This document shows, one piece after another, positions 12,065 to 57,844 of a stretch of DNA of 64,000 nucleotides (the stretch's first letter is position 1; every line of letters starts with the position of its first letter). The stretch lies in sequence record OM386658.1. One strand, 5' to 3'. Origin of the DNA: Escherichia phage vB_EcoM_ESCO32. Made by a program: the position numbers and the translations under genes. The notes beneath the pieces were generated by a model that ran no database searches, was not told the origin of the DNA, and saw only the letters and a list, made by a program, of their open reading frames with translations.

Positions 12065-12391
12065 ATGAAAATAACGACAGAACAGGCTTTAATAGACAAA
12101 GGAAGGGAAATCTTAGAAAGTCATTTGGAGGATATTCAAAGGACTCCAGGGTATCTCGGCTGGCGTATACAAGAAGCCGTCGATTTTCTACCCCGTAAAA
12201 ATAAAGAGATTGAAGTAAGATCTCTATTCCTCCTTGTTAAAGTAGATGGTGACGCTATATACAAAGATGTAGCGTCTCACATTGAACAAATAGAAGAAAA
12301 AGCCTACAAAGAATTTGCAGATCTTGTTGTAGAACATAATATAGAAGGTAAAGTTAATATCTTTATACTTATGGATTTTGAGGAGAGTTGA
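12065..12391 (+). CDS. hypothetical protein
   Basis: Track ORF; AAGGAG SD. Confidence 0.6.
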   Translation: MKITTEQALIDKGREILESHLEDIQRTPGYLGWRIQEAVDFLPRKNKEIEVRSLFLLVKVDGDAIYKDVASHIEQIEEKAYKEFADLVVEHNIEGKVNIFILMDFEES

Positions 12392-13134
12392 TGTTAGTAT
12401 ATCAAGAAATTAGTGTAAAAGATGATCAAGACCTGTTTATTATTGGTGATTTACATGGTTGCTTTGATTTGTATCAGAAGGGTGTTAATACTTTAGGTAT
12501 CCGAGATCAAGATGTTGTTGTATCTTTAGGAGATCTTACAGATCGCGGCAAGCAGAATTTTCGTTGTGTTGTTGAATTCACCAGAAAGCTAAATCGTTAT
12601 GGTATTCGTGGAAATCATGAAGATATGATGATTAAAGGGTTGCTAGAAGGTGATAGACGATATTACGAATGTTGGTTTCAGAACGGAGGCCATACAGTTC
12701 TAGACGAGTGTGGAGAAGAGGGTGCAACTGCTCTTGCTTTGATGCTAGAAGATTTACCTGTTGTACTTGTTGTCAATTATCGTAATATGAAACTAGGCTT
12801 TATTCACGGTGGGTATCCTTCAGTTTTGGAACATTTACCAGTAACAGAAGTTTTGCCATTTTGTTTGAATATGAATAAAGAGCAAGTTTCTCGATTCACA
12901 GAATCTTTAATGTGGGATCGTGATATGATAGATTGCGCACTTGAAGGGATTCTTCTTCCTAGGGTTTCAGGAGTAGATTATGTATTTCACGGGCATTCTT
13001 ATGTTCCTAAACCTGTAATTAGCAGTAATAGGGTATATATGGACACAGGATCTTGCTTCAATGGTAATTTAACCTTTGCATATTTTGATGATTCAAATAC
13101 GTTACAATTTTATTCTACTTTAGAGGAGGATTAA
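12391..13134 (+). CDS. Ser/Thr protein phosphatase (calcineurin-like metallophosphoesterase, lambda-PPase type)
   Basis: Motifs GDLHGC, GDLTDRG, GNHE in canonical order; ATG 12391 after GAGGAG. Confidence 0.8.
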   Translation: MLVYQEISVKDDQDLFIIGDLHGCFDLYQKGVNTLGIRDQDVVVSLGDLTDRGKQNFRCVVEFTRKLNRYGIRGNHEDMMIKGLLEGDRRYYECWFQNGGHTVLDECGEEGATALALMLEDLPVVLVVNYRNMKLGFIHGGYPSVLEHLPVTEVLPFCLNMNKEQVSRFTESLMWDRDMIDCALEGILLPRVSGVDYVFHGHSYVPKPVISSNRVYMDTGSCFNGNLTFAYFDDSNTLQFYSTLEED

Positions 13135-31091: not shown

Positions 31092-31461
31092 ATCAGACTC
31101 CTTTATAAATTTACGTTTCATGCCACACATCATACAGCATCTTTTCATCTATTACAAGAACAGCAACATAGAAACATCATTAATGGAGGGCTTAGTATAG
31201 GAATTAGTATAGGTATTCCCTATCAATTATTCTATATATACCTATTATTTTTAACACACCCCTTTGTACATAATATAGACAAATAAATATCTATGCCACA
31301 AAAATTTTCCGGTATACCCGATTTATTTCGACACACCCTTTTTCATAAGCGTAAAGTCAATAATATCAATAACTTGCCGCAAAATACTGCTCGCTTGCGA
31401 GAGGTGCTTAACGCGATTTTCAGCGCCCCCCGATTTCTGCCGACCGTCCCCCTCAAATATC

Positions 31462-31480
31462 AATGAGAATAATTATCATT
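31462..31480. promoter_or_regulatory. Fur-box-like palindrome
   Basis: AATGAGAATAATTATCATT, followed by TTGCAT; approx. Confidence 0.4.
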
Positions 31481-31658
31481 TGCATTATCATTCAATGACT
31501 TATAAGACTTTTGATTATTTTCTGAGCAAGAAAGGTACTACTCACAACAAAACAGATAAATTCTAAGTAAATCAATGGCTTGGCAAGTCTAAACATCTAT
31601 ATACACCTTGCCAAATGAAATGATCTGGCGTGAAATAGTGCCACCCGTGGAAGATAAC

Positions 31659-31675
31659 TGATAATGATTATCATT
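31659..31675. promoter_or_regulatory. Fur-box-like palindrome (best copy)
   Basis: ctGATAATGATTATCATTtgc matches 16 of 19 positions of Fur consensus GATAATGATAATCATTATC; preceded by GATAAC hexamer. Confidence 0.45.
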
Positions 31676-32542
31676 TGCATACTTTCTGTACTATAAAACC
31701 GACTAAAAATCAAGATAATTCTGATTTATTGCGCTTTTAAGAAAGTAGGCTCAACAAATAGGGGAATACATTGCAACAAATGAGGTATGTTATAGGGGCA
31801 ATAGTATGAAAAATCATCTATTCAGATAAAATAATTTTGCGCAATAGTGGCAATATTTTTCTTGACAAGAAAGATTTCTTTGTGTTCACATAGCGCCCCC
31901 TGGAGGGTGGCGCATTATGATCATCAGTGTCATTATTCATTTCAGTGTTATTATTCACCATGTTTATTATATGCAGCTTATATTATAGCCAATGTTCTAA
32001 ACATTAGCTAATAATAACGCACCGCAACAATGTAAGGGAATACAATATACTCGTATATTGTTGCGCTTGCAATTGTTGCAAGCTACATAAGCACAAATAA
32101 TAACTATCGGTGATGGTTATTATGTGGGGTGTGTAGTTGCGTTATTATTAGCCGCCTATGTGTCCGGCATAGGCTGCTAATGATACGCTTGCGAATTATA
32201 TTTCTTGTTATAGTTATTGTATGAAATGATTACTACATGAAATGGTTATTTAGGTAATAGATAGGGAGGTAAAGATTAGATCATAAATAGATAGGATATT
32301 AATTATTTAGCAATGTTACTAACAATTTAATAGTTACTTTGTGCAACAATTCGATAGATTATAGTTATAGTTTTAAGGGTTAGATAGATTATAGTTAGCT
32401 TAGTAATGATTTACATTGATTATTGTTGTTTAATATAAGGTTATCAATAAGATAGTAACAGTATGTTATAAATAAAAGTAAGATAATTAGCTTTAATTTA
32501 GTTAGATAACTTATTATTTTATAAGTTAGATGGTCTTAAGTT

Positions 32543-32561
32543 AAGAATGATTATCATTATT
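32543..32561. promoter_or_regulatory. Fur-box-like palindrome
   Basis: AAGAATGATTATCATTATT. Confidence 0.4.
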
Positions 32562-32597
32562 GCATTATGCAGTTTATTGCATAAATAATCAGCTATA

Positions 32598-32618
32598 AAT
32601 GAAAATGATTATCACTTA
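32598..32618. promoter_or_regulatory. Fur-box-like palindrome
   Basis: AAATGAAAATGATTATCACTT; the segment AATGATTATCACTTA recurs at about 44268. Confidence 0.4.
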
Positions 32619-43692: not shown

Positions 43693-43959
43693 ATGACAAA
43701 TACTACTTTACACCTCATGCACTCATTAGGCTGGCAAGGCGGCACGGTGCACCAGGTAGCAAGCGCAACGGGCTTAAAGGTTGAAACCGTTCTCAACCTG
43801 GGCGATCATAAGGTGGAAGAAATAGATCATTTTGATACGTTCGCAAATGGTTATCTATGGGCTTGCAGTGGCGGCGGGGAAAGCAAGATCCCACCAGGGG
43901 CGCGGGGTGATATGTATTTTTGGTTAGGTGTCCTATCCTGGCAAGAAAACAAAAAATAA
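43693..43959 (+). CDS. hypothetical protein (lone plus-strand gene at edge of minus-strand block)
   Basis: Track ORF 43567..43959 trimmed to ATG 43693; upstream TTGCTA-18-TATTAT and small hairpin. Confidence 0.45.
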   Translation: MTNTTLHLMHSLGWQGGTVHQVASATGLKVETVLNLGDHKVEEIDHFDTFANGYLWACSGGGESKIPPGARGDMYFWLGVLSWQENKK

Positions 43960-43961
43960 TA

Positions 43962-43990
43962 TTGACAAGCCCAGGGATCGGGCTTATACT
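43962..43990 (+). promoter_or_regulatory. near-consensus sigma70 promoter with no ORF downstream
   Basis: TTGACA - 17 nt - TATACT; downstream about 200 nt are GC-rich with inverted repeats and no SD-ATG ORF. Confidence 0.5.
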
Positions 43991-44221
43991 GTCTTACATA
44001 CAGAAGAGGAAGCGCCACCCCCACGGCGTAAAGGCGGGGCTAACATACCAGGGCACTACTGGTTGGAAGGTTGATCGCCGGTAGCTCGTCTAAAATAAAT
44101 TTGTAAAGAAATGTAAAGATAAAAATAATTGCTTGCTTTTGTTGTTGGTTATGCTATTCTTATTGTATGGCGAGGGGACACGGGAGCGCGAGACAAACAC
44201 CGCCCCTGCGCGTTATTCTCT

Positions 44222-44332
44222 AAATGAGAAAATTCTCATTTGCTAATGATTCTCATTCTCTTACTGAGAATGATTATCACTTACATAGTTAAATGATAAT
44301 GATTCTCATTTACAAATGAGAATCATTATCAT
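44222..44332. promoter_or_regulatory. cluster of five Fur-box-like palindromes
   Basis: AAATGAGAAAATTCTCATTT; TAATGATTCTCATT; GAGAATGATTATCACTT; GATAATGATTCTCATTTAC (15 of 19 to Fur consensus); AATGAGAATCATTATCAT. Confidence 0.45.
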
Positions 44333-44354
44333 ACGCACACCTATAAAAACACGA

Positions 44355-44557
44355 AATTGAACTTTTCATTTTTGATTTTTCTACGGAAAAAGGCAAAAAA
44401 ACTTTAAATAAACTGGGGAATTTTTAAAAAATTGAAGTTTTCATTTTCTAAACCTGGATAGAAATACGTACAAAAACTTTAAATAATTTTGACCAAACTT
44501 GAACTTTTCATTTTCTAAATTTGTACCCAAAAATCTGTAAAAACTTTAAATAATTTT
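44355..44557. repeat. three tandem direct repeats of a 66-76 bp unit
   Basis: Each unit has TTGAA(C/G)TTTTCATTTT and AAAAACTTTAAATAA boxes separated by about 22 variable nt; approx. Confidence 0.55.
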
Positions 44558-44772
44558 GTCCTTTTTATAAAAATGATTTTACTGTTCTGTTATAAATAGT
44601 AGCTAAGAGATAATGTGTCTTTTAAAAACCAAATAGCATAGTCCAACAAACAAATTAAATAATTTATTAACAGAGTACAAAATAATACTTACTCTGGATA
44701 TATTATTCAGAGGGTGAATTTCCGTACATGAAACCCACACCCCTTTTTATAAAAATAAAAATTTTCAAAATA

Positions 44773-55069: not shown

Positions 55070-57844
55070 ATGGCTAAGAAAGAGTTGAGCTTCACTCCGA
55101 CAGAAGAGCAAACAGCTATTAAGGAGGCTTTTCCAGACCATCGCTTTTTAACTATCCAAGCTAAATCTGGGTCAGGCAAAACGTCAACACTTTATTTGCT
55201 GGCTAACAGTACAGAAGATCGCATTCTTTACTTAGCTTTCAATAAAAGCATGGCAGAAGAAGCACGACGTAAGATGCCACTAAATGTAGAATGCCGTACA
55301 TTGCATTCTATTTGCTATCAATTCCTGGATCATCGTTTACGTGCAAAACTGTCACGACCAGAAGGACAGTATGTTAACGTTGCAGGTACAGGTAGTGAGA
55401 TAGCAAAGAAATTTAAGATTAATAATCTTATTGATAAACGAGGGAAAACACTTTTAACTCGTGCTATGATCGGTTTAATGATCAAGCAAACCGTAGGTAA
55501 GTTTGAATTTTCGGATGATCCTTTTATCAGCCGTAAACATTTTCCTAGTGTACATCTTGCAGATATTAAAAGAAAAGGTATTAACGAACACAAACTAATT
55601 ACAGAAGTAGTTAAGTATGCAAAACAATTGTGGCGAGAGCGCATCGATCCTAACACAGACACTTTGATGACGCATGACACCTATGTAAAATTGTTTGAAT
55701 TATCTGGTGCTGATCTTGGTTATGATATTATTTTTGGTGATGAATTCCAGGATGTTAACCCTGCATTCTTATCTATTCTGCGAAATGCTAAATCTGCAAA
55801 ACAAATTGTGGTAGTGGGCGATGAATTCCAATGTGTGTCGGAAAACACGGTACTTAATACCGAGAATGGTCAGGTTACAATGAAAGACCTGCAAATCGGT
55901 GATAAGGTAGAGTCTTATTCTAATGGTAAAGTTACATTTAGAAAAGTAACAAATAAGACTTTATCTACACGTACAAAAGGTAGGAATATTATTACTGCCA
56001 CAGGTAAAACTTTAGATATGACACATAACCATCGTATTTGGGCTTCATCCTATGTTCTGAAAGATGATCAGATGGTGGTATACCTAATGTGGAGGAAAGA
56101 TTTAGGTTTCCGAGTAGGGATCACTAACAAATTCGATGATAAAGAAGGTTTTTCTAAACTGGGGCAACGTACACGTTCTGAAAAAGCACAGAAATTGTGG
56201 GTGTTGGATATTGTTGAAAACCGTGAAGCTGCTATGGAAAAAGAAATGGCATACAGTTTACAATATGGCATTCCTACTTGTGTATTTGAAGCAAGTTCAC
56301 GCGGCATTAATCAAGAAAGGATCAATAACATTTTTGAACAATTCGGACAAAACGGTTTTAAACTTTTAGAGGATAAAGATTATCATTTTGCTTATCCACA
56401 TTGGCACAGCATCAATTGTGCAGTAGATGAAAGAAAAATGTTAACAGTGACTTTGCGAGCACAAGGTTGTAAAGGAACACAAGTTAGTTTTGAGTGGACA
56501 GAAAGTGAAATGTCAATCTATGCTTCACTCATTGAAGCAGGTGTAAGCGTAAGTGTTGCTAAGTTGGAAGGTCGTTACCGTGTACGTAAATATTTCAATT
56601 CTTATCGTGAAGCATTGAGTTTTGCACAAAAGATCCTTGAAATAGTGCCGTTTGCATCTTTAAAAGAATGCATGTCCTCTGTGAACACCGCCAAATATAC
56701 TTTAATTCCGGCGGCGGGTTTGTTTAAAGGCATGTCTGTGTTGGTAAAAGATGGTGATACTGTAACGGCAGAAGAAATTGTGGACATTGTAGATAGTGAA
56801 GGTATCTATTATGATATTGAAGTAGAGGATACTGCTAACTTCTTTGGCAATGAAATTCTTAGCCACAACTGCATTTATCAATTTAGAGGTAGCTCTAATA
56901 TGATGATTGAAACAGCTAAGTATGGGGCAGAGCTTCCATTAACTGCTTGCTTCCGTTTTGGCCCCAAAGTGGCAAACATTGCCAATATGATTTTAAGCGA
57001 TAAAGAACCTTTGCGTCATCCTTTGGTTGGTAAAGGCTTTGATACTGTAGTAGGTAGCTACAAATCAGATGTTGTAGACTATACAAAACCTTACACTATC
57101 ATCTTTCGCAAGAATTTAACCTTGCTTATGGAGGCAATGGATCGTATTGCAGATGGGGAAGAAATTATTATTAACGTAGACACCAGGGATTTTATCTCTA
57201 TGGTAGATAGTGTTAATGCTCTTCGGAGAGGAGATATTGAGAAAGTAAAACATGAAACTGTATTACCTTACGCAGACTGGGATGAATTTGTTGAGTGTGC
57301 AGAGGCTGATCCAGATGCTAAACGCTTGTTAAACATTGTAGTTTCTGGTAAGGCAAACACTATAGCACATACACTTAGAACGCATAGAAATTCTCCTACA
57401 GCAAAAGTCACACTGACTACAGCACATAAGTCTAAAGGTTTGGAGTGGGATCAGGTTATTGTTGCTAATGATTTTCCTTCCAATTATGATAAAAAGACTG
57501 GTGAGTGGGTAGGACTAGAAGAGGCAGAGCGAAACCTACTGTATGTAGCGCATACCCGTTGTGTTAAATGCTTACAATGGAACACAACCGTACAGGAGAT
57601 TATAGATATCAACCGTGTTGCAACAGAGAAAGTACCAACAAGCACCACTTTACCGATCAATGGTATTAAACTTGGTGTATTTGGCGCTGGCACATCTCGA
57701 AAAGCTGTAGAAAAATTTGTTGCAGATTCTTTTGATGGTAACTATAATCATGCACAAGCATATGAGAGTTGGCTAGAGGAAGGTGAAGGTGATTTTTTAG
57801 GTGAAATAAATCTTTTACCAGACATAAATAAACTGGTAAACTAA
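55070..57844 (+). CDS. UvrD/PcrA-like superfamily 1 helicase containing an intein
   Basis: Track ORF trimmed to ATG 55070; Walker A AKSGSGKTST, motif II IIFGDEFQD; motif III is split (VVVGDEFQ / CIYQFRGSS) by a 346-aa insertion. Confidence 0.8.
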   Translation: MAKKELSFTPTEEQTAIKEAFPDHRFLTIQAKSGSGKTSTLYLLANSTEDRILYLAFNKSMAEEARRKMPLNVECRTLHSICYQFLDHRLRAKLSRPEGQYVNVAGTGSEIAKKFKINNLIDKRGKTLLTRAMIGLMIKQTVGKFEFSDDPFISRKHFPSVHLADIKRKGINEHKLITEVVKYAKQLWRERIDPNTDTLMTHDTYVKLFELSGADLGYDIIFGDEFQDVNPAFLSILRNAKSAKQIVVVGDEFQCVSENTVLNTENGQVTMKDLQIGDKVESYSNGKVTFRKVTNKTLSTRTKGRNIITATGKTLDMTHNHRIWASSYVLKDDQMVVYLMWRKDLGFRVGITNKFDDKEGFSKLGQRTRSEKAQKLWVLDIVENREAAMEKEMAYSLQYGIPTCVFEASSRGINQERINNIFEQFGQNGFKLLEDKDYHFAYPHWHSINCAVDERKMLTVTLRAQGCKGTQVSFEWTESEMSIYASLIEAGVSVSVAKLEGRYRVRKYFNSYREALSFAQKILEIVPFASLKECMSSVNTAKYTLIPAAGLFKGMSVLVKDGDTVTAEEIVDIVDSEGIYYDIEVEDTANFFGNEILSHNCIYQFRGSSNMMIETAKYGAELPLTACFRFGPKVANIANMILSDKEPLRHPLVGKGFDTVVGSYKSDVVDYTKPYTIIFRKNLTLLMEAMDRIADGEEIIINVDTRDFISMVDSVNALRRGDIEKVKHETVLPYADWDEFVECAEADPDAKRLLNIVVSGKANTIAHTLRTHRNSPTAKVTLTTAHKSKGLEWDQVIVANDFPSNYDKKTGEWVGLEEAERNLLYVAHTRCVKCLQWNTTVQEIIDINRVATEKVPTSTTLPINGIKLGVFGAGTSRKAVEKFVADSFDGNYNHAQAYESWLEEGEGDFLGEINLLPDINKLVN
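55832..56869 (+). mobile_element. intein (346 aa) inserted in helicase motif III
   Basis: Starts with Cys (CVSENTVLN, block A), block B LDMTHNHRIW, C-terminal blocks YYDIEVEDTANFFGNEILSHN ending His-Asn, followed by +1 Cys; size implies an internal endonuclease-like domain. Confidence 0.75.

What the first reader, a model, noticed from the sequence alone, without database searches (positions are those of the whole stretch)
44222..44332. Family of Fur-box-like palindromic operators shared by both non-coding islands
Nine copies of a palindrome built on AATGA(T/G)AAT / ATT(A/C)TCATT half-sites occur: four in island 1 (about 31462, 31659, 32543, 32598) and five packed into 110 bp here. Several copies match the enterobacterial Fur consensus GATAATGATAATCATTATC at 15-16 of 19 positions (best: ctGATAATGATTATCATTtgc at about 31659, preceded by a GATAAC hexamer). 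This is either host Fur-dependent, iron-responsive control of a phage locus, or the operator set of a phage-encoded repressor with a Fur-like site. Either would be unusual for a T4-like virus.
Basis: partly seen in the sequence, partly recalled or inferred. Interest (0 to 1): 0.8.

Follow-up and report, generated by a model that had tools for sequence, protein, structure and literature searches.

The report
Host Fur-box arrays in phage non-coding islands
A virulent E. coli phage of the phi92 group (not T4-like) carries conserved clusters of DNA sites that cannot be told apart from the binding sites of the host's iron sensor protein Fur. The same clusters occur in phage T5's unexplained "injection stop" region, so these phages probably use the host's iron sensor on their own DNA.

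Summary
Nine copies of AATGAKAATNATTMTCATT lie in two non-coding islands (31462-32616 and 44223-44333), against 0.43 expected by chance. The window is a phi92-like myovirus (Justusliebigvirus), not T4-like.

- **Match to host Fur sites.** A matrix built only from the phage sites, scanned over 50 kb of E. coli K-12, ranks the three known Fur-regulated ent/fep promoter regions as its top six hits. A matrix learned de novo from ten K-12 Fur promoters scores the phage sites at 13-24 bits; the host's own sites score 9.6-22.5. Six phage sites reach 16 bits or more, against 0.01-0.1 expected.
- **Conservation.** In a complete relative, every site of 16 bits or more lies in these two islands. The island-2 array keeps its position and a 29-bp spacing across Stephanstirmvirinae and Vequintavirinae, always just 3' of two conserved promoter-driven non-coding elements.
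- **T5.** T5 and T5-like phages carry the same arrays in the injection-stop repeat region.
- **No phage-encoded binder found.** No phage Fur homolog and no co-distributed phage DNA-binding protein turned up.

Best reading: these are cis-acting arrays that bind host Fur. What Fur does there is inferred, not shown; an iron-dependent block on transcription is my leading guess. The boxes do not overlap the conserved core promoters, and two of them lie inside the probable terminal repeat.

The parts
31462..31480 (.). Fur box I-1 (AATGAGAATAATTATCATT), inside the probable terminal repeat
   Evidence: 22.8 bits with the host-derived matrix. Same position in phAPEC8 and Klebsiella phage phi1_175008. 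Lies at position 57 of the 328-bp terminal repeat of Mt1B1_P17.
31657..31675 (.). Fur box I-2 (ACTGATAATGATTATCATT; core is a perfect 7-1-7 motif), inside the probable terminal repeat
   Evidence: 19.6 bits. 17 of 19 to the classical consensus. Conserved in phAPEC8. At position 236 of the Mt1B1_P17 terminal repeat.
32540..32558 (.). Fur box I-3 (weaker copy)
   Evidence: 14.6 bits. The aligned position in relatives is partly conserved.
32598..32616 (.). Fur box I-4
   Evidence: 18.1 bits. Conserved in phAPEC8 (18.5 bits) and Klebsiella phage phi1_175008.
44223..44240 (.). Fur box II-1, degenerate in this genome (18 bp, one base lost from the central A run)
   Evidence: Read from the sequence. 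A proper 19-mer scoring 17.1 bits in phi92 and IMG/VR relatives.
44239..44257 (.). Fur box II-2
   Evidence: 17.3 bits.
44263..44281 (.). Fur box II-3
   Evidence: 12.9 bits. 29 bp from II-4.
44292..44310 (.). Fur box II-4 (AATGATAATGATTCTCATT), the best site in the window
   Evidence: 24.0 bits. Zero mismatches to the family pattern.
44315..44333 (.). Fur box II-5
   Evidence: 21.9 bits. Forms a perfect 19-nt inverted repeat with II-4.
43962..43990 (+). Sigma-70-type promoter PA (TTGACA-17-TATACT); its spacer is a GC-rich hairpin
   Evidence: 11 of 12 consensus matches. A promoter at the aligned position in all 9 phages compared, with compensatory changes in the hairpin.
43997..44095 (+). Conserved structured non-coding element A
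   Evidence: 83-86% identity across subfamilies. 16-sequence alignment with a conserved fold and one compensatory pair. No Rfam match.
44130..44157 (+). Promoter PB (TTGCTT-16-TATTCT)
   Evidence: Read from the sequence. The aligned promoters score 9-10 of 12 in the other phages.
44166..44215 (+). Conserved non-coding element B, directly upstream of the first Fur box
   Evidence: Alignment. The first box sits at a fixed offset of 181-194 nt from the element A core in 14 of 14 IMG/VR contigs.
44354..44574 (+). Three tandem repeats of about 70 bp, each carrying AAACTTTAAATA, directly after the array
   Evidence: All three exact copies of the motif in the 64-kb window lie here.
31411..31750 (.). 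Probable direct terminal repeat (physical genome ends); boundaries are approximate
   Evidence: A 328-bp exact terminal repeat in Mt1B1_P17 aligns here. GenBank records start or end at window 31410, 31751 and 31774.

Best explanation
The palindromes are genuine binding sites for the host's iron sensor Fur (the Fe2+-loaded ferric uptake regulator), kept by the phage as cis-acting arrays. What is shown: the sites are sequence-equivalent to E. coli Fur operators, they are as strong as the best host sites, they are confined to two non-coding islands, and they have kept their positions across two phage subfamilies. What is inferred: when the host has enough iron, Fur dimers coat the arrays. The five boxes at 44223-44333 would form a protein-DNA complex of roughly 110 bp. 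That complex would block or insulate host RNA polymerase. In island 2 the array sits about +50 to +170 from the conserved promoter PB, with no intrinsic terminator in between. Fur would therefore act as a roadblock that limits the PA/PB non-coding transcripts to their structured 5' parts. When iron is scarce, Fur leaves the DNA and transcription can run on across the repeats. In island 1 the boxes bracket a third structured element, and two of them lie inside the terminal repeat. The net effect would be to tie activity of these non-coding control regions to the iron state of the infected cell.
For: A matrix built from the 8 phage sites ranks the three known Fur-regulated ent/fep divergent promoters as the top 6 hits in 50 kb of K-12; the next hit outside them scores 11 bits against 15-24 for those six. 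De novo motif discovery on 10 K-12 Fur promoters gives AATGATAATCATTATCATT. With that matrix the phage sites score 13-24 bits and the host's own sites 9.6-22.5. Enrichment is 6 sites of 16 bits or more against 0.115 or 0.011 expected. In a complete 148-kb relative, all sites of 16 bits or more lie in the two islands. The array is conserved in position, with 29-bp spacing between box centres, in Phapecoctavirus, Mydovirus, Certrevirus, Seunavirus and unclassified relatives, and in 14 of 14 IMG/VR contigs that carry element A. That fixed position argues for a role in cis. Within a site, the two halves are no more complementary than independently drawn half-sites would be (0.803 observed against 0.790, P = 0.13). 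This fits a protein that reads two half-sites and does not fit selection for an RNA hairpin. No phage Fur homolog was found. Unrelated T5-like phages, and T5 itself, carry the same boxes, which points to a shared host factor.
Against: No binding or expression data exist. None of the strong boxes overlaps the -35/-10 of a conserved promoter, which is the usual geometry for Fur repression. In Seunavirus and Mydovirus a third promoter lies about 18 bp downstream of the last box, a geometry closer to upstream activation or anti-silencing than to repression. Position 6 of the half-site is mostly G in the phages (63% G, 33% T) but mostly T in the host (58% T, 15% G). That could mean a different reader protein or a different selective pressure. 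Two boxes lie inside the probable terminal repeat, and the T5 boxes lie beside the injection-stop point, which hints at a role in handling DNA and not in transcription. Roadblock repression by Fur is not an established mechanism, to my knowledge.
Confidence: 0.4

Rival explanations
1. Fur binds the arrays but serves as an architectural host factor for a DNA transaction, not as an iron switch. Candidates are pausing or anchoring of the incoming genome, or processing and packaging at the terminal repeat.
For: Two boxes lie inside the probable 330-350-bp terminal repeat, 50-100 bp from each boundary. The island-2 array lies about 13 kb (8.6-8.8% of the genome) from the left end in Mt1B1_P17. In T5 and T5-like phages the same boxes sit in repeat region 3 of the terminal repeat, between the paired DnaA boxes and the DRD repeats, beside the estimated first-step-transfer shear point near 9.6 kb or 7.9% (Davison, bioRxiv 10.1101/866236). 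The boxes avoid core promoters. The regular 29-bp spacing (35 bp in T5-like phages) suggests an ordered protein-DNA structure.
Against: The islands contain no DnaA boxes. No homologs of proteins encoded in the T5 terminal-repeat region were detected in the window (coverage was limited). Nothing suggests stepwise DNA entry in phi92-like or rV5-like phages. The genome ends are inferred from how database records are cut, not from sequencing reads. An essential structural step that depends on iron-loaded Fur would be fragile.
Confidence: 0.2
2. A phage-encoded protein (or a host protein other than Fur) is the real reader of AAATGAGAATNATTCTCATTT, and the resemblance to the Fur box is convergent or incidental.
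For: The phage sites systematically prefer G at half-site position 6, where host sites prefer T. The conserved palindrome extends to 21 bp with AAA/TTT flanks. A small + strand gene (the gp224 homolog, 43693-43959) sits directly upstream in Stephanstirmvirinae. T5 is said to encode a DNA-binding pre-early protein, A2 (my recollection; not checked).
Against: No Fur-family protein occurs in these phages. gp224 has no DNA-binding domain hit in Pfam. It is absent next to the arrays of KP13-16, BIS47, POP15, KaOmega, SalP219, 4MG, ABPH49 and the T5-like phages. Only one unrelated protein is shared between the window and 146 kb of T5-like flanking sequence. Whatever else may bind, sites this close to consensus should be occupied by the abundant host Fur in iron-replete cells (inference).
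Confidence: 0.15
3. The arrays act as a Fur decoy. As the genome replicates, about ten strong sites per copy soak up Fur and switch on the host's iron-uptake and iron-sparing genes for the phage's benefit.
For: The sites are as strong as or stronger than the best host operators. There are nine to ten per genome. Multicopy Fur boxes are known to derepress the regulon; this is the principle of the Fur titration assay (my knowledge).
Against: A decoy would not need a fixed offset from element B, 29-bp spacing, or placement in the terminal repeat, yet all are conserved. T5 degrades host DNA early (abstract listed), so derepressing host genes could not be the purpose there.
Confidence: 0.1
4. The palindromes work as nucleic-acid structures (RNA hairpins acting as terminators of the PA/PB transcripts, or DNA cruciforms) and not as protein-binding sites.
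For: No intrinsic terminator follows elements A or B on the + strand. Each box can form a hairpin of about 9 bp followed by U residues. II-4 and II-5 together form a perfect 19-nt inverted repeat.
Against: The stems are AT-rich and were not picked up as terminators on the + strand. Complementarity within sites is no higher than for independently drawn half-sites. Variation between sites keeps the Fur consensus bases and does not co-vary.
Confidence: 0.05

Closest known systems
Fur operators of E. coli, including multi-site arrays such as the aerobactin (iucA) promoter and the fepA-fes, fepB-entC and ryhB operators
   Same: Same 19-bp palindrome (host de novo consensus AATGATAATCATTATCATT), same score range, and tandem or overlapping sites.
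   Different: The phage sites lie on a virulent phage, in gene-free islands. They do not overlap conserved core promoters, are spaced regularly at 29 bp, prefer GAGAAT over GATAAT, and two lie in a terminal repeat.
Palindromes and DRC repeats of phage T5 repeat region 3 (the injection-stop region), function unknown
   Same: The same motif in tandem arrays (19-25 bits), in a long non-coding, highly conserved region inside a terminal repeat, about 8% from the left end (10.1101/866236).
   Different: T5 has paired DnaA boxes and DRD repeats next to the array and a 10-kb repeat. The window has neither DnaA boxes nor detectable homologs of proteins encoded in the T5 terminal-repeat region. Matching the boxes to the named T5 palindromes rests on their order along the sequence, not on published coordinates.
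Fur boxes on temperate phages that carry host-like cargo genes (sitABCD on lambdoid coliphages, PMC6969025; the stx1 promoter, from my own knowledge)
   Same: A host Fur operator carried on phage DNA.
   Different: Those are single boxes at the promoter of an iron-related cargo operon on a prophage. Here, arrays sit in non-coding control regions of virulent phages with no iron-related gene attached.
Host nutrient-regulator sites in virulent cyanophages (PhoB boxes upstream of pstS/phoA; NtcA sites); from my own knowledge, not checked here
   Same: A virulent phage uses a host nutrient-sensing transcription factor.
   Different: Those sites sit at promoters of metabolic genes carried by the phage. 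Here the sensor is for iron, no coding target is evident, and the arrangement is an array.

Membership tests
Fur box (operator of the ferric uptake regulator) | 19-bp inverted repeat matching GATAATGATAATCATTATC, or the 7-1-7 form TGATAATnATTATCA | tested here: met
   Six matches with up to 3 mismatches against 0.04 expected; best is 17 of 19. The core at 31659-31673 is a perfect 7-1-7 motif.
Fur box (operator of the ferric uptake regulator) | Scores within the range of real host operators using a matrix derived only from the host, and above composition-matched background | tested here: met
   Phage sites 13-24 bits, host sites 9.6-22.5 bits. Six sites of 16 bits or more against 0.115 (window composition) or 0.011 (island composition) expected.
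Fur box (operator of the ferric uptake regulator) | Reciprocity: a matrix built from the candidate sites recovers known Fur operators in the host genome | tested here: met
   The top 6 hits in 50 kb of K-12 are all in the fepA-fes, fepD-entS and fepB-entC intergenic regions.
Fur box (operator of the ferric uptake regulator) | Operator overlaps the -35/-10 region of the regulated promoter | tested here: not met
   The conserved promoters PA and PB lie upstream, placing the boxes at about +50 to +170 of PB. Only weak promoter-like matches (9 of 12, not conserved) overlap boxes. This feature is typical of Fur operators but not strictly defining.
Fur box (operator of the ferric uptake regulator) | Metal-dependent binding by Fur protein, and Fur- or iron-dependent expression | not testable with these tools
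   Needs gel-shift or footprinting, a Fur titration assay, ChIP, and RNA-seq in a fur-deleted host.
Operator set of a phage-encoded repressor | A cognate DNA-binding protein encoded by the phage and found wherever the sites are found | tested here: not met
   No Fur homolog. gp224 has no DNA-binding domain hit and is not co-distributed. No protein is shared with T5-like flanking sequence near the boxes. The search was not exhaustive.
T5-type injection-stop region (repeat region 3) | Pairs of DnaA boxes within large inverted repeats; A1/A2 pre-early genes | tested here: not met
   No TTWTNCACA in either island. No hit from window reading frames to T5-like terminal-repeat loci other than one unrelated protein.
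T5-type injection-stop region (repeat region 3) | A long, conserved non-coding repeat region in or near the terminal repeat, about 8% from the left end | tested here: inconclusive
   Island 1 contains the probable terminal repeat, and island 2 lies 8.6-8.8% from the left end in Mt1B1_P17. The ends are inferred from database records only.
Intrinsic terminator / RNA hairpin | GC-rich stem followed by a U tract; base pairing kept through compensatory change | tested here: not met
   No + strand terminator call in the array. Pairing is no greater than for independent half-sites.
Iteron-type replication origin | Iterons together with host initiator (DnaA) boxes and an AT-rich unwinding element | tested here: inconclusive
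   Three repeats of about 70 bp adjoin the array, but there are no DnaA boxes. GC skew turns follow gene orientation only.

The most novel reading that the evidence does not exclude
The Fur-box arrays are the shared working core of a DNA-entry checkpoint in two unrelated groups of large virulent coliphages. Iron-loaded host Fur would clamp the incoming genome at an array about 8% from the left end: the T5 injection-stop region, and island 2 of phi92-like and rV5-like phages. It would also mark the terminal repeat. On this reading, the unexplained palindromes of T5's injection-stop region are Fur sites, and phi92-like and rV5-like phages also deliver a first block of small early genes before the rest of the genome.
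Probability: 0.07. Interest if true: 0.9.

Novelty: new variant of a known kind. Interest (0 to 1): 0.68.

Why it matters
Fur boxes are textbook elements, but they are known on phage DNA only as promoters of iron-related cargo genes on prophages. Here, near-consensus arrays are a conserved and apparently undescribed feature of the non-coding control regions of two major groups of virulent enterobacterial phages.

- **Groups involved.** They are the phi92/rV5 supergroup and the T5-like phages.
- **Prior literature.** No paper in the searched library links Fur to either group.
- **Phage therapy.** If Fur binds, these phages read or exploit the host's iron state. Both groups are used in phage therapy, and infection sites are iron-poor.
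- **T5 injection stop.** The finding gives a concrete, testable candidate for the conserved palindromes in T5's injection-stop region. The most recent analysis of that region called their function impossible to guess (10.1101/866236).
- **New non-coding elements.** It also flags three conserved, structured non-coding elements that have no Rfam family.

Tried and rejected
- **Known RNAs.** tRNA and tmRNA scan: none. Rfam at gathering thresholds over the whole window, and at E-value thresholds over both islands: only chance-level hits.
- **Phage-encoded Fur.** Rejected: tblastn with E. coli Fur finds only contaminant or host-like records.
- **gp224 as the binder.** No DNA-binding domain hit in Pfam, a PHROG family of unknown function, and no co-distribution with the array.
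- **Shared proteins with T5-like loci.** One unrelated hit.
- **DnaA, IHF and GATC sites in the islands.** No DnaA boxes, nothing notable otherwise.
- **Origin of replication from GC skew.** The turns only track gene orientation. The rV5 genome paper reached the same conclusion (PMC3606486).
- **AAACTTTAAATA as a general phage promoter.** Rejected: all three exact copies are in island 2.
- **A small peptide in element B.** Rejected: the reading frame is not conserved in KP13-16 (read).
- **Promoters overlapping boxes.** Only weak, non-conserved matches.
- **Locus retrieval.** Fetching loci through the neighbouring NADAR/YbiA-like protein gave only 5. The 15-mer scan for element A returned mostly chance matches; 14 of 86 were real.
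- **Host-gene screen.** The Keio screen for the V5-like phage LL12 does not mention fur or iron (PMC7229145).
- **Wasted search.** One literature search was too broad and gave nothing useful.

Full report
**What the window is.** The region around the finding is 97-98% identical to phi92-like myoviruses such as Escherichia phages outra, phi92 and alia (genus Justusliebigvirus, subfamily Stephanstirmvirinae). It is not a T4-like virus. Existing annotations call the flanking genes hypothetical and leave both islands unannotated or marked only as a repeat region. The rV5 genome paper shows a box labelled "non-coding" without interpreting it (PMC3606486).

- The pattern AATGAKAATNATTMTCATT with up to 3 mismatches occurs 9 times against 0.43 expected. 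Four copies are in island 1, four in the 110-bp cluster, and one weak outlier is at 56369.
- The fifth cluster copy (44223-44240) has lost one base compared with relatives, where it is a normal 19-mer.
- The classical Fur consensus with up to 3 mismatches occurs 6 times against 0.04 expected. The best match is 17 of 19, and its core at 31659-31673 is a perfect TGATAATnATTATCA.

**Is it the Fur motif? Three independent tests.**
- *Phage matrix on host DNA.* I built a matrix from the eight phage sites alone and scanned 50 kb of E. coli K-12 that contains the enterobactin cluster. The six best hits all fall in the three known Fur-controlled divergent promoter regions: fepB-entC, fepD-entS and fepA-fes. 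The best hit outside them scores 11 bits, against 15-24 for those six.
- *Host matrix on phage DNA.* I ran expectation-maximisation on ten K-12 Fur-regulated promoter regions with no phage input. These were fepA-fes, fepD-entS, fepB-entC, fhuA, tonB, ryhB, cirA, fecI, fecA and fhuF. The result was AATGATAATCATTATCATT. With this matrix the phage sites score 12.9-24.0 bits and the host's own best sites 9.6-22.5. Six phage sites reach 16 bits or more, against 0.115 expected in composition-matched 64-kb sequence and 0.011 in sequence with the islands' own AT-rich composition.
- *Direct comparison of matrices.* The host matrix and a phage matrix built from 35 distinct sites correlate at r = 0.94. 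The one systematic difference is half-site position 6: G 63% and T 33% in the phages, T 58% and G 15% in the host.

GAGAAT half-sites also occur in real host operators such as fecI and ryhB.

**Distribution and conservation.**
- *Genome-wide.* In a complete 148-kb relative, every site of 16 bits or more lies in the two islands.
- *Island 2.* The region was aligned across nine phages from Justusliebigvirus, Phapecoctavirus, an unclassified Klebsiella phage, Mydovirus, Certrevirus and Seunavirus. Their listed hosts are Escherichia, Klebsiella, Salmonella, Pectobacterium and Acinetobacter. All share one layout on the + strand:
  1. a sigma-70-type promoter, PA, whose spacer is a hairpin that changes by compensatory substitutions;
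  2. a very conserved structured element, A;
  3. a TGTAAAGA direct repeat;
  4. a second promoter, PB;
  5. a second conserved element, B;
  6. immediately after B, two to five Fur boxes whose centres are 29 bp apart.
- *IMG/VR contigs.* In 14 of 14 contigs that carry element A, the first box starts 181-194 nt after the element's core.
- *Island 1.* Boxes I-1, I-2 and I-4 keep their positions in phAPEC8, and I-1 and I-4 in a Klebsiella phage.
- *Protein site or hairpin?* The box sequences differ between phages but stay on the Fur consensus. The two halves of a site are no more complementary than independently drawn halves would be (0.803 against 0.790, P = 0.13). That is what a protein-binding site looks like, not a selected hairpin.

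**An unexpected relative: T5.** A sensitive DNA search matched the cluster to the left terminal repeat of T5-like phages.
- In a T5-like phage and in T5 itself, three to five boxes of 19-25 bits form an array. It lies between the paired DnaA boxes and the run of DRD repeats.
- This is repeat region 3, next to the estimated first-step-transfer shear point.
- The latest analysis of that region lists these palindromes and DRC repeats, says their function cannot be guessed, and does not mention Fur (10.1101/866236).
- My matching of boxes to the named T5 palindromes rests on their order along the DNA, not on published coordinates.
- No paper in the searchable library connects Fur with T5-like, rV5-like or phi92-like phages. 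The only hit concerns Fur boxes upstream of sitABCD on temperate lambdoid phages.

**Who binds?**
- No Fur-family protein is encoded by these phage groups (tblastn).
- The small + strand gene just upstream of PA (the gp224 homolog) has no DNA-binding domain hit in Pfam.
- That gene is missing next to the arrays of most Vequintavirinae and of all T5-like phages.
- Only one unrelated protein is shared between the 64-kb window and 146 kb of T5-like flanking DNA.

Two unrelated phage lineages share the motif but no candidate binder, and the motif equals the host's. The simplest reader is therefore host Fur. This is an inference; binding was not tested.

**What does binding do?** The usual repression geometry, a box over the -35/-10 hexamers, is not seen at the conserved promoters.
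- *Position relative to promoters.* The island-2 array lies about +50 to +170 from PB. No + strand terminator follows elements A or B. In Seunavirus and Mydovirus a further promoter lies about 18 bp beyond the last box.
- *Best-supported mechanism.* Iron-loaded Fur coats the array and blocks or insulates host RNA polymerase, so transcription across the island depends on iron. I give this 0.4.
- *Decoy.* The fixed position and spacing argue against a pure decoy role. So does T5, which degrades host DNA early.
- *Structural role.* A role in DNA entry or end processing is a serious rival, for the reasons in the next section.

**Genome ends.**
- The Phapecoctavirus Mt1B1_P17 record carries an exact 328-bp direct terminal repeat. 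It aligns to window positions of about 31411-31745 and contains boxes I-1 and I-2.
- Other records start at window 31410 or are cut at 31751/31774.
- Both boundaries carry a related motif, AGGTGCTTAAC or GGCTCAAC.
- With these ends, island 2 lies about 13 kb (8.6-8.8%) from the left end. It bounds a block of small minus-strand genes. The T5 boxes lie about 8% from T5's left end.
- There are no DnaA boxes in the islands and no detected homologs of proteins encoded in the T5 terminal-repeat region. The parallel is therefore one of position and motif only.

**Verdict.** The taxonomic label was wrong and the phage-repressor alternative is not supported. The functional consequence remains open. The finding is a new variant of a known kind: host Fur operators used as conserved arrays in non-coding control regions of virulent phages. 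It gives a directly testable link to the long-standing T5 injection-stop problem.

Noticed in passing
window 31397-31760 (island 1): Probable physical genome ends. A 328-bp exact direct terminal repeat in the Phapecoctavirus Mt1B1_P17 record aligns here. Other GenBank records begin at 31410 or are cut at 31751/31774. Both boundaries carry a related motif (GAGAGGTGCTTAACGCG at 31397-31413; GAAAGTAGGCTCAACAAAT at 31738-31756), possibly the terminase cutting site.
   Followed up: partly
window 43997-44095 (+), promoter at 43962-43990: Element A is a non-coding element with very strong sequence conservation (83-86% identity across subfamilies). It sits behind a near-consensus sigma-70 promoter, has a predicted multi-stem fold with a possible pseudoknot (loop CCCC against GGGG), and has no Rfam family and no terminator.
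   Followed up: partly
window 44130-44215 (+): Promoter PB and element B, with a conserved loop GAGACAAACACC. An 18-codon reading frame here is not conserved in relatives. The element ends directly at the first Fur box.
   Followed up: partly
window 32009-32185: Element C in island 1 is a structure of about 175 nt. It is closed by a 15-bp stem (GCTAATAATAACGCA / TGCGTTATTATTAGC) that changes by compensatory substitutions in phAPEC8 and a Klebsiella phage. Inner hairpins also co-vary. It is flanked by Fur boxes on both sides and has no Rfam match.
   Followed up: partly
window 44354-44574: Three tandem repeats of about 70 bp, each with TTGAAC/GTTTTCATTTT and AAACTTTAAATA, found only here in the window. 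Vequintavirinae have different GATC-rich repeats (TCGATCGAGAAC, AATACGATC) at the same place. They look like iterons, but no initiator or DnaA box was found.
   Followed up: partly
window 43965-43987: A GC-rich hairpin forms the spacer of promoter PA and is followed by a T-run on the minus strand. Its stem changes by compensatory substitutions between phages, so one sequence may serve as both a terminator and a promoter.
   Followed up: no
window 32563-32582: Between boxes I-3 and I-4 there is a second conserved inverted repeat, TTATGCA-N6-TGCATAA. It is also present in phAPEC8 and Klebsiella phage phi1_175008 and may be a site for another dimeric protein.
   Followed up: no
window 44096-44115: A direct repeat TGTAAAGAAATGTAAAGA between element A and PB is conserved in all nine phages aligned.
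   Followed up: no
L003 1100-1700 (T5-like pork27) and L101 3450-4050 (T5): The T5 injection-stop repeat region holds 3-5 Fur boxes of consensus strength with about 35-bp spacing, between the paired DnaA boxes and the DRD repeats. The T5 literature I could read does not mention Fur.
   Followed up: partly
search results: Several records labelled 'Campylobacter phage' (A145, A110a, C3, B15), and one each labelled Serratia, Pseudomonas and Acinetobacter, are 70-98% identical to this E. coli phage group over these regions. Their host labels look doubtful.
   Followed up: no
window ~12381-13130 (+): A reading frame of about 250 aa is the only protein in the window with a homolog (30% identity, E = 1e-39) in the T5-like flanking loci examined. 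It lies far from the Fur boxes in both genomes.
   Followed up: no
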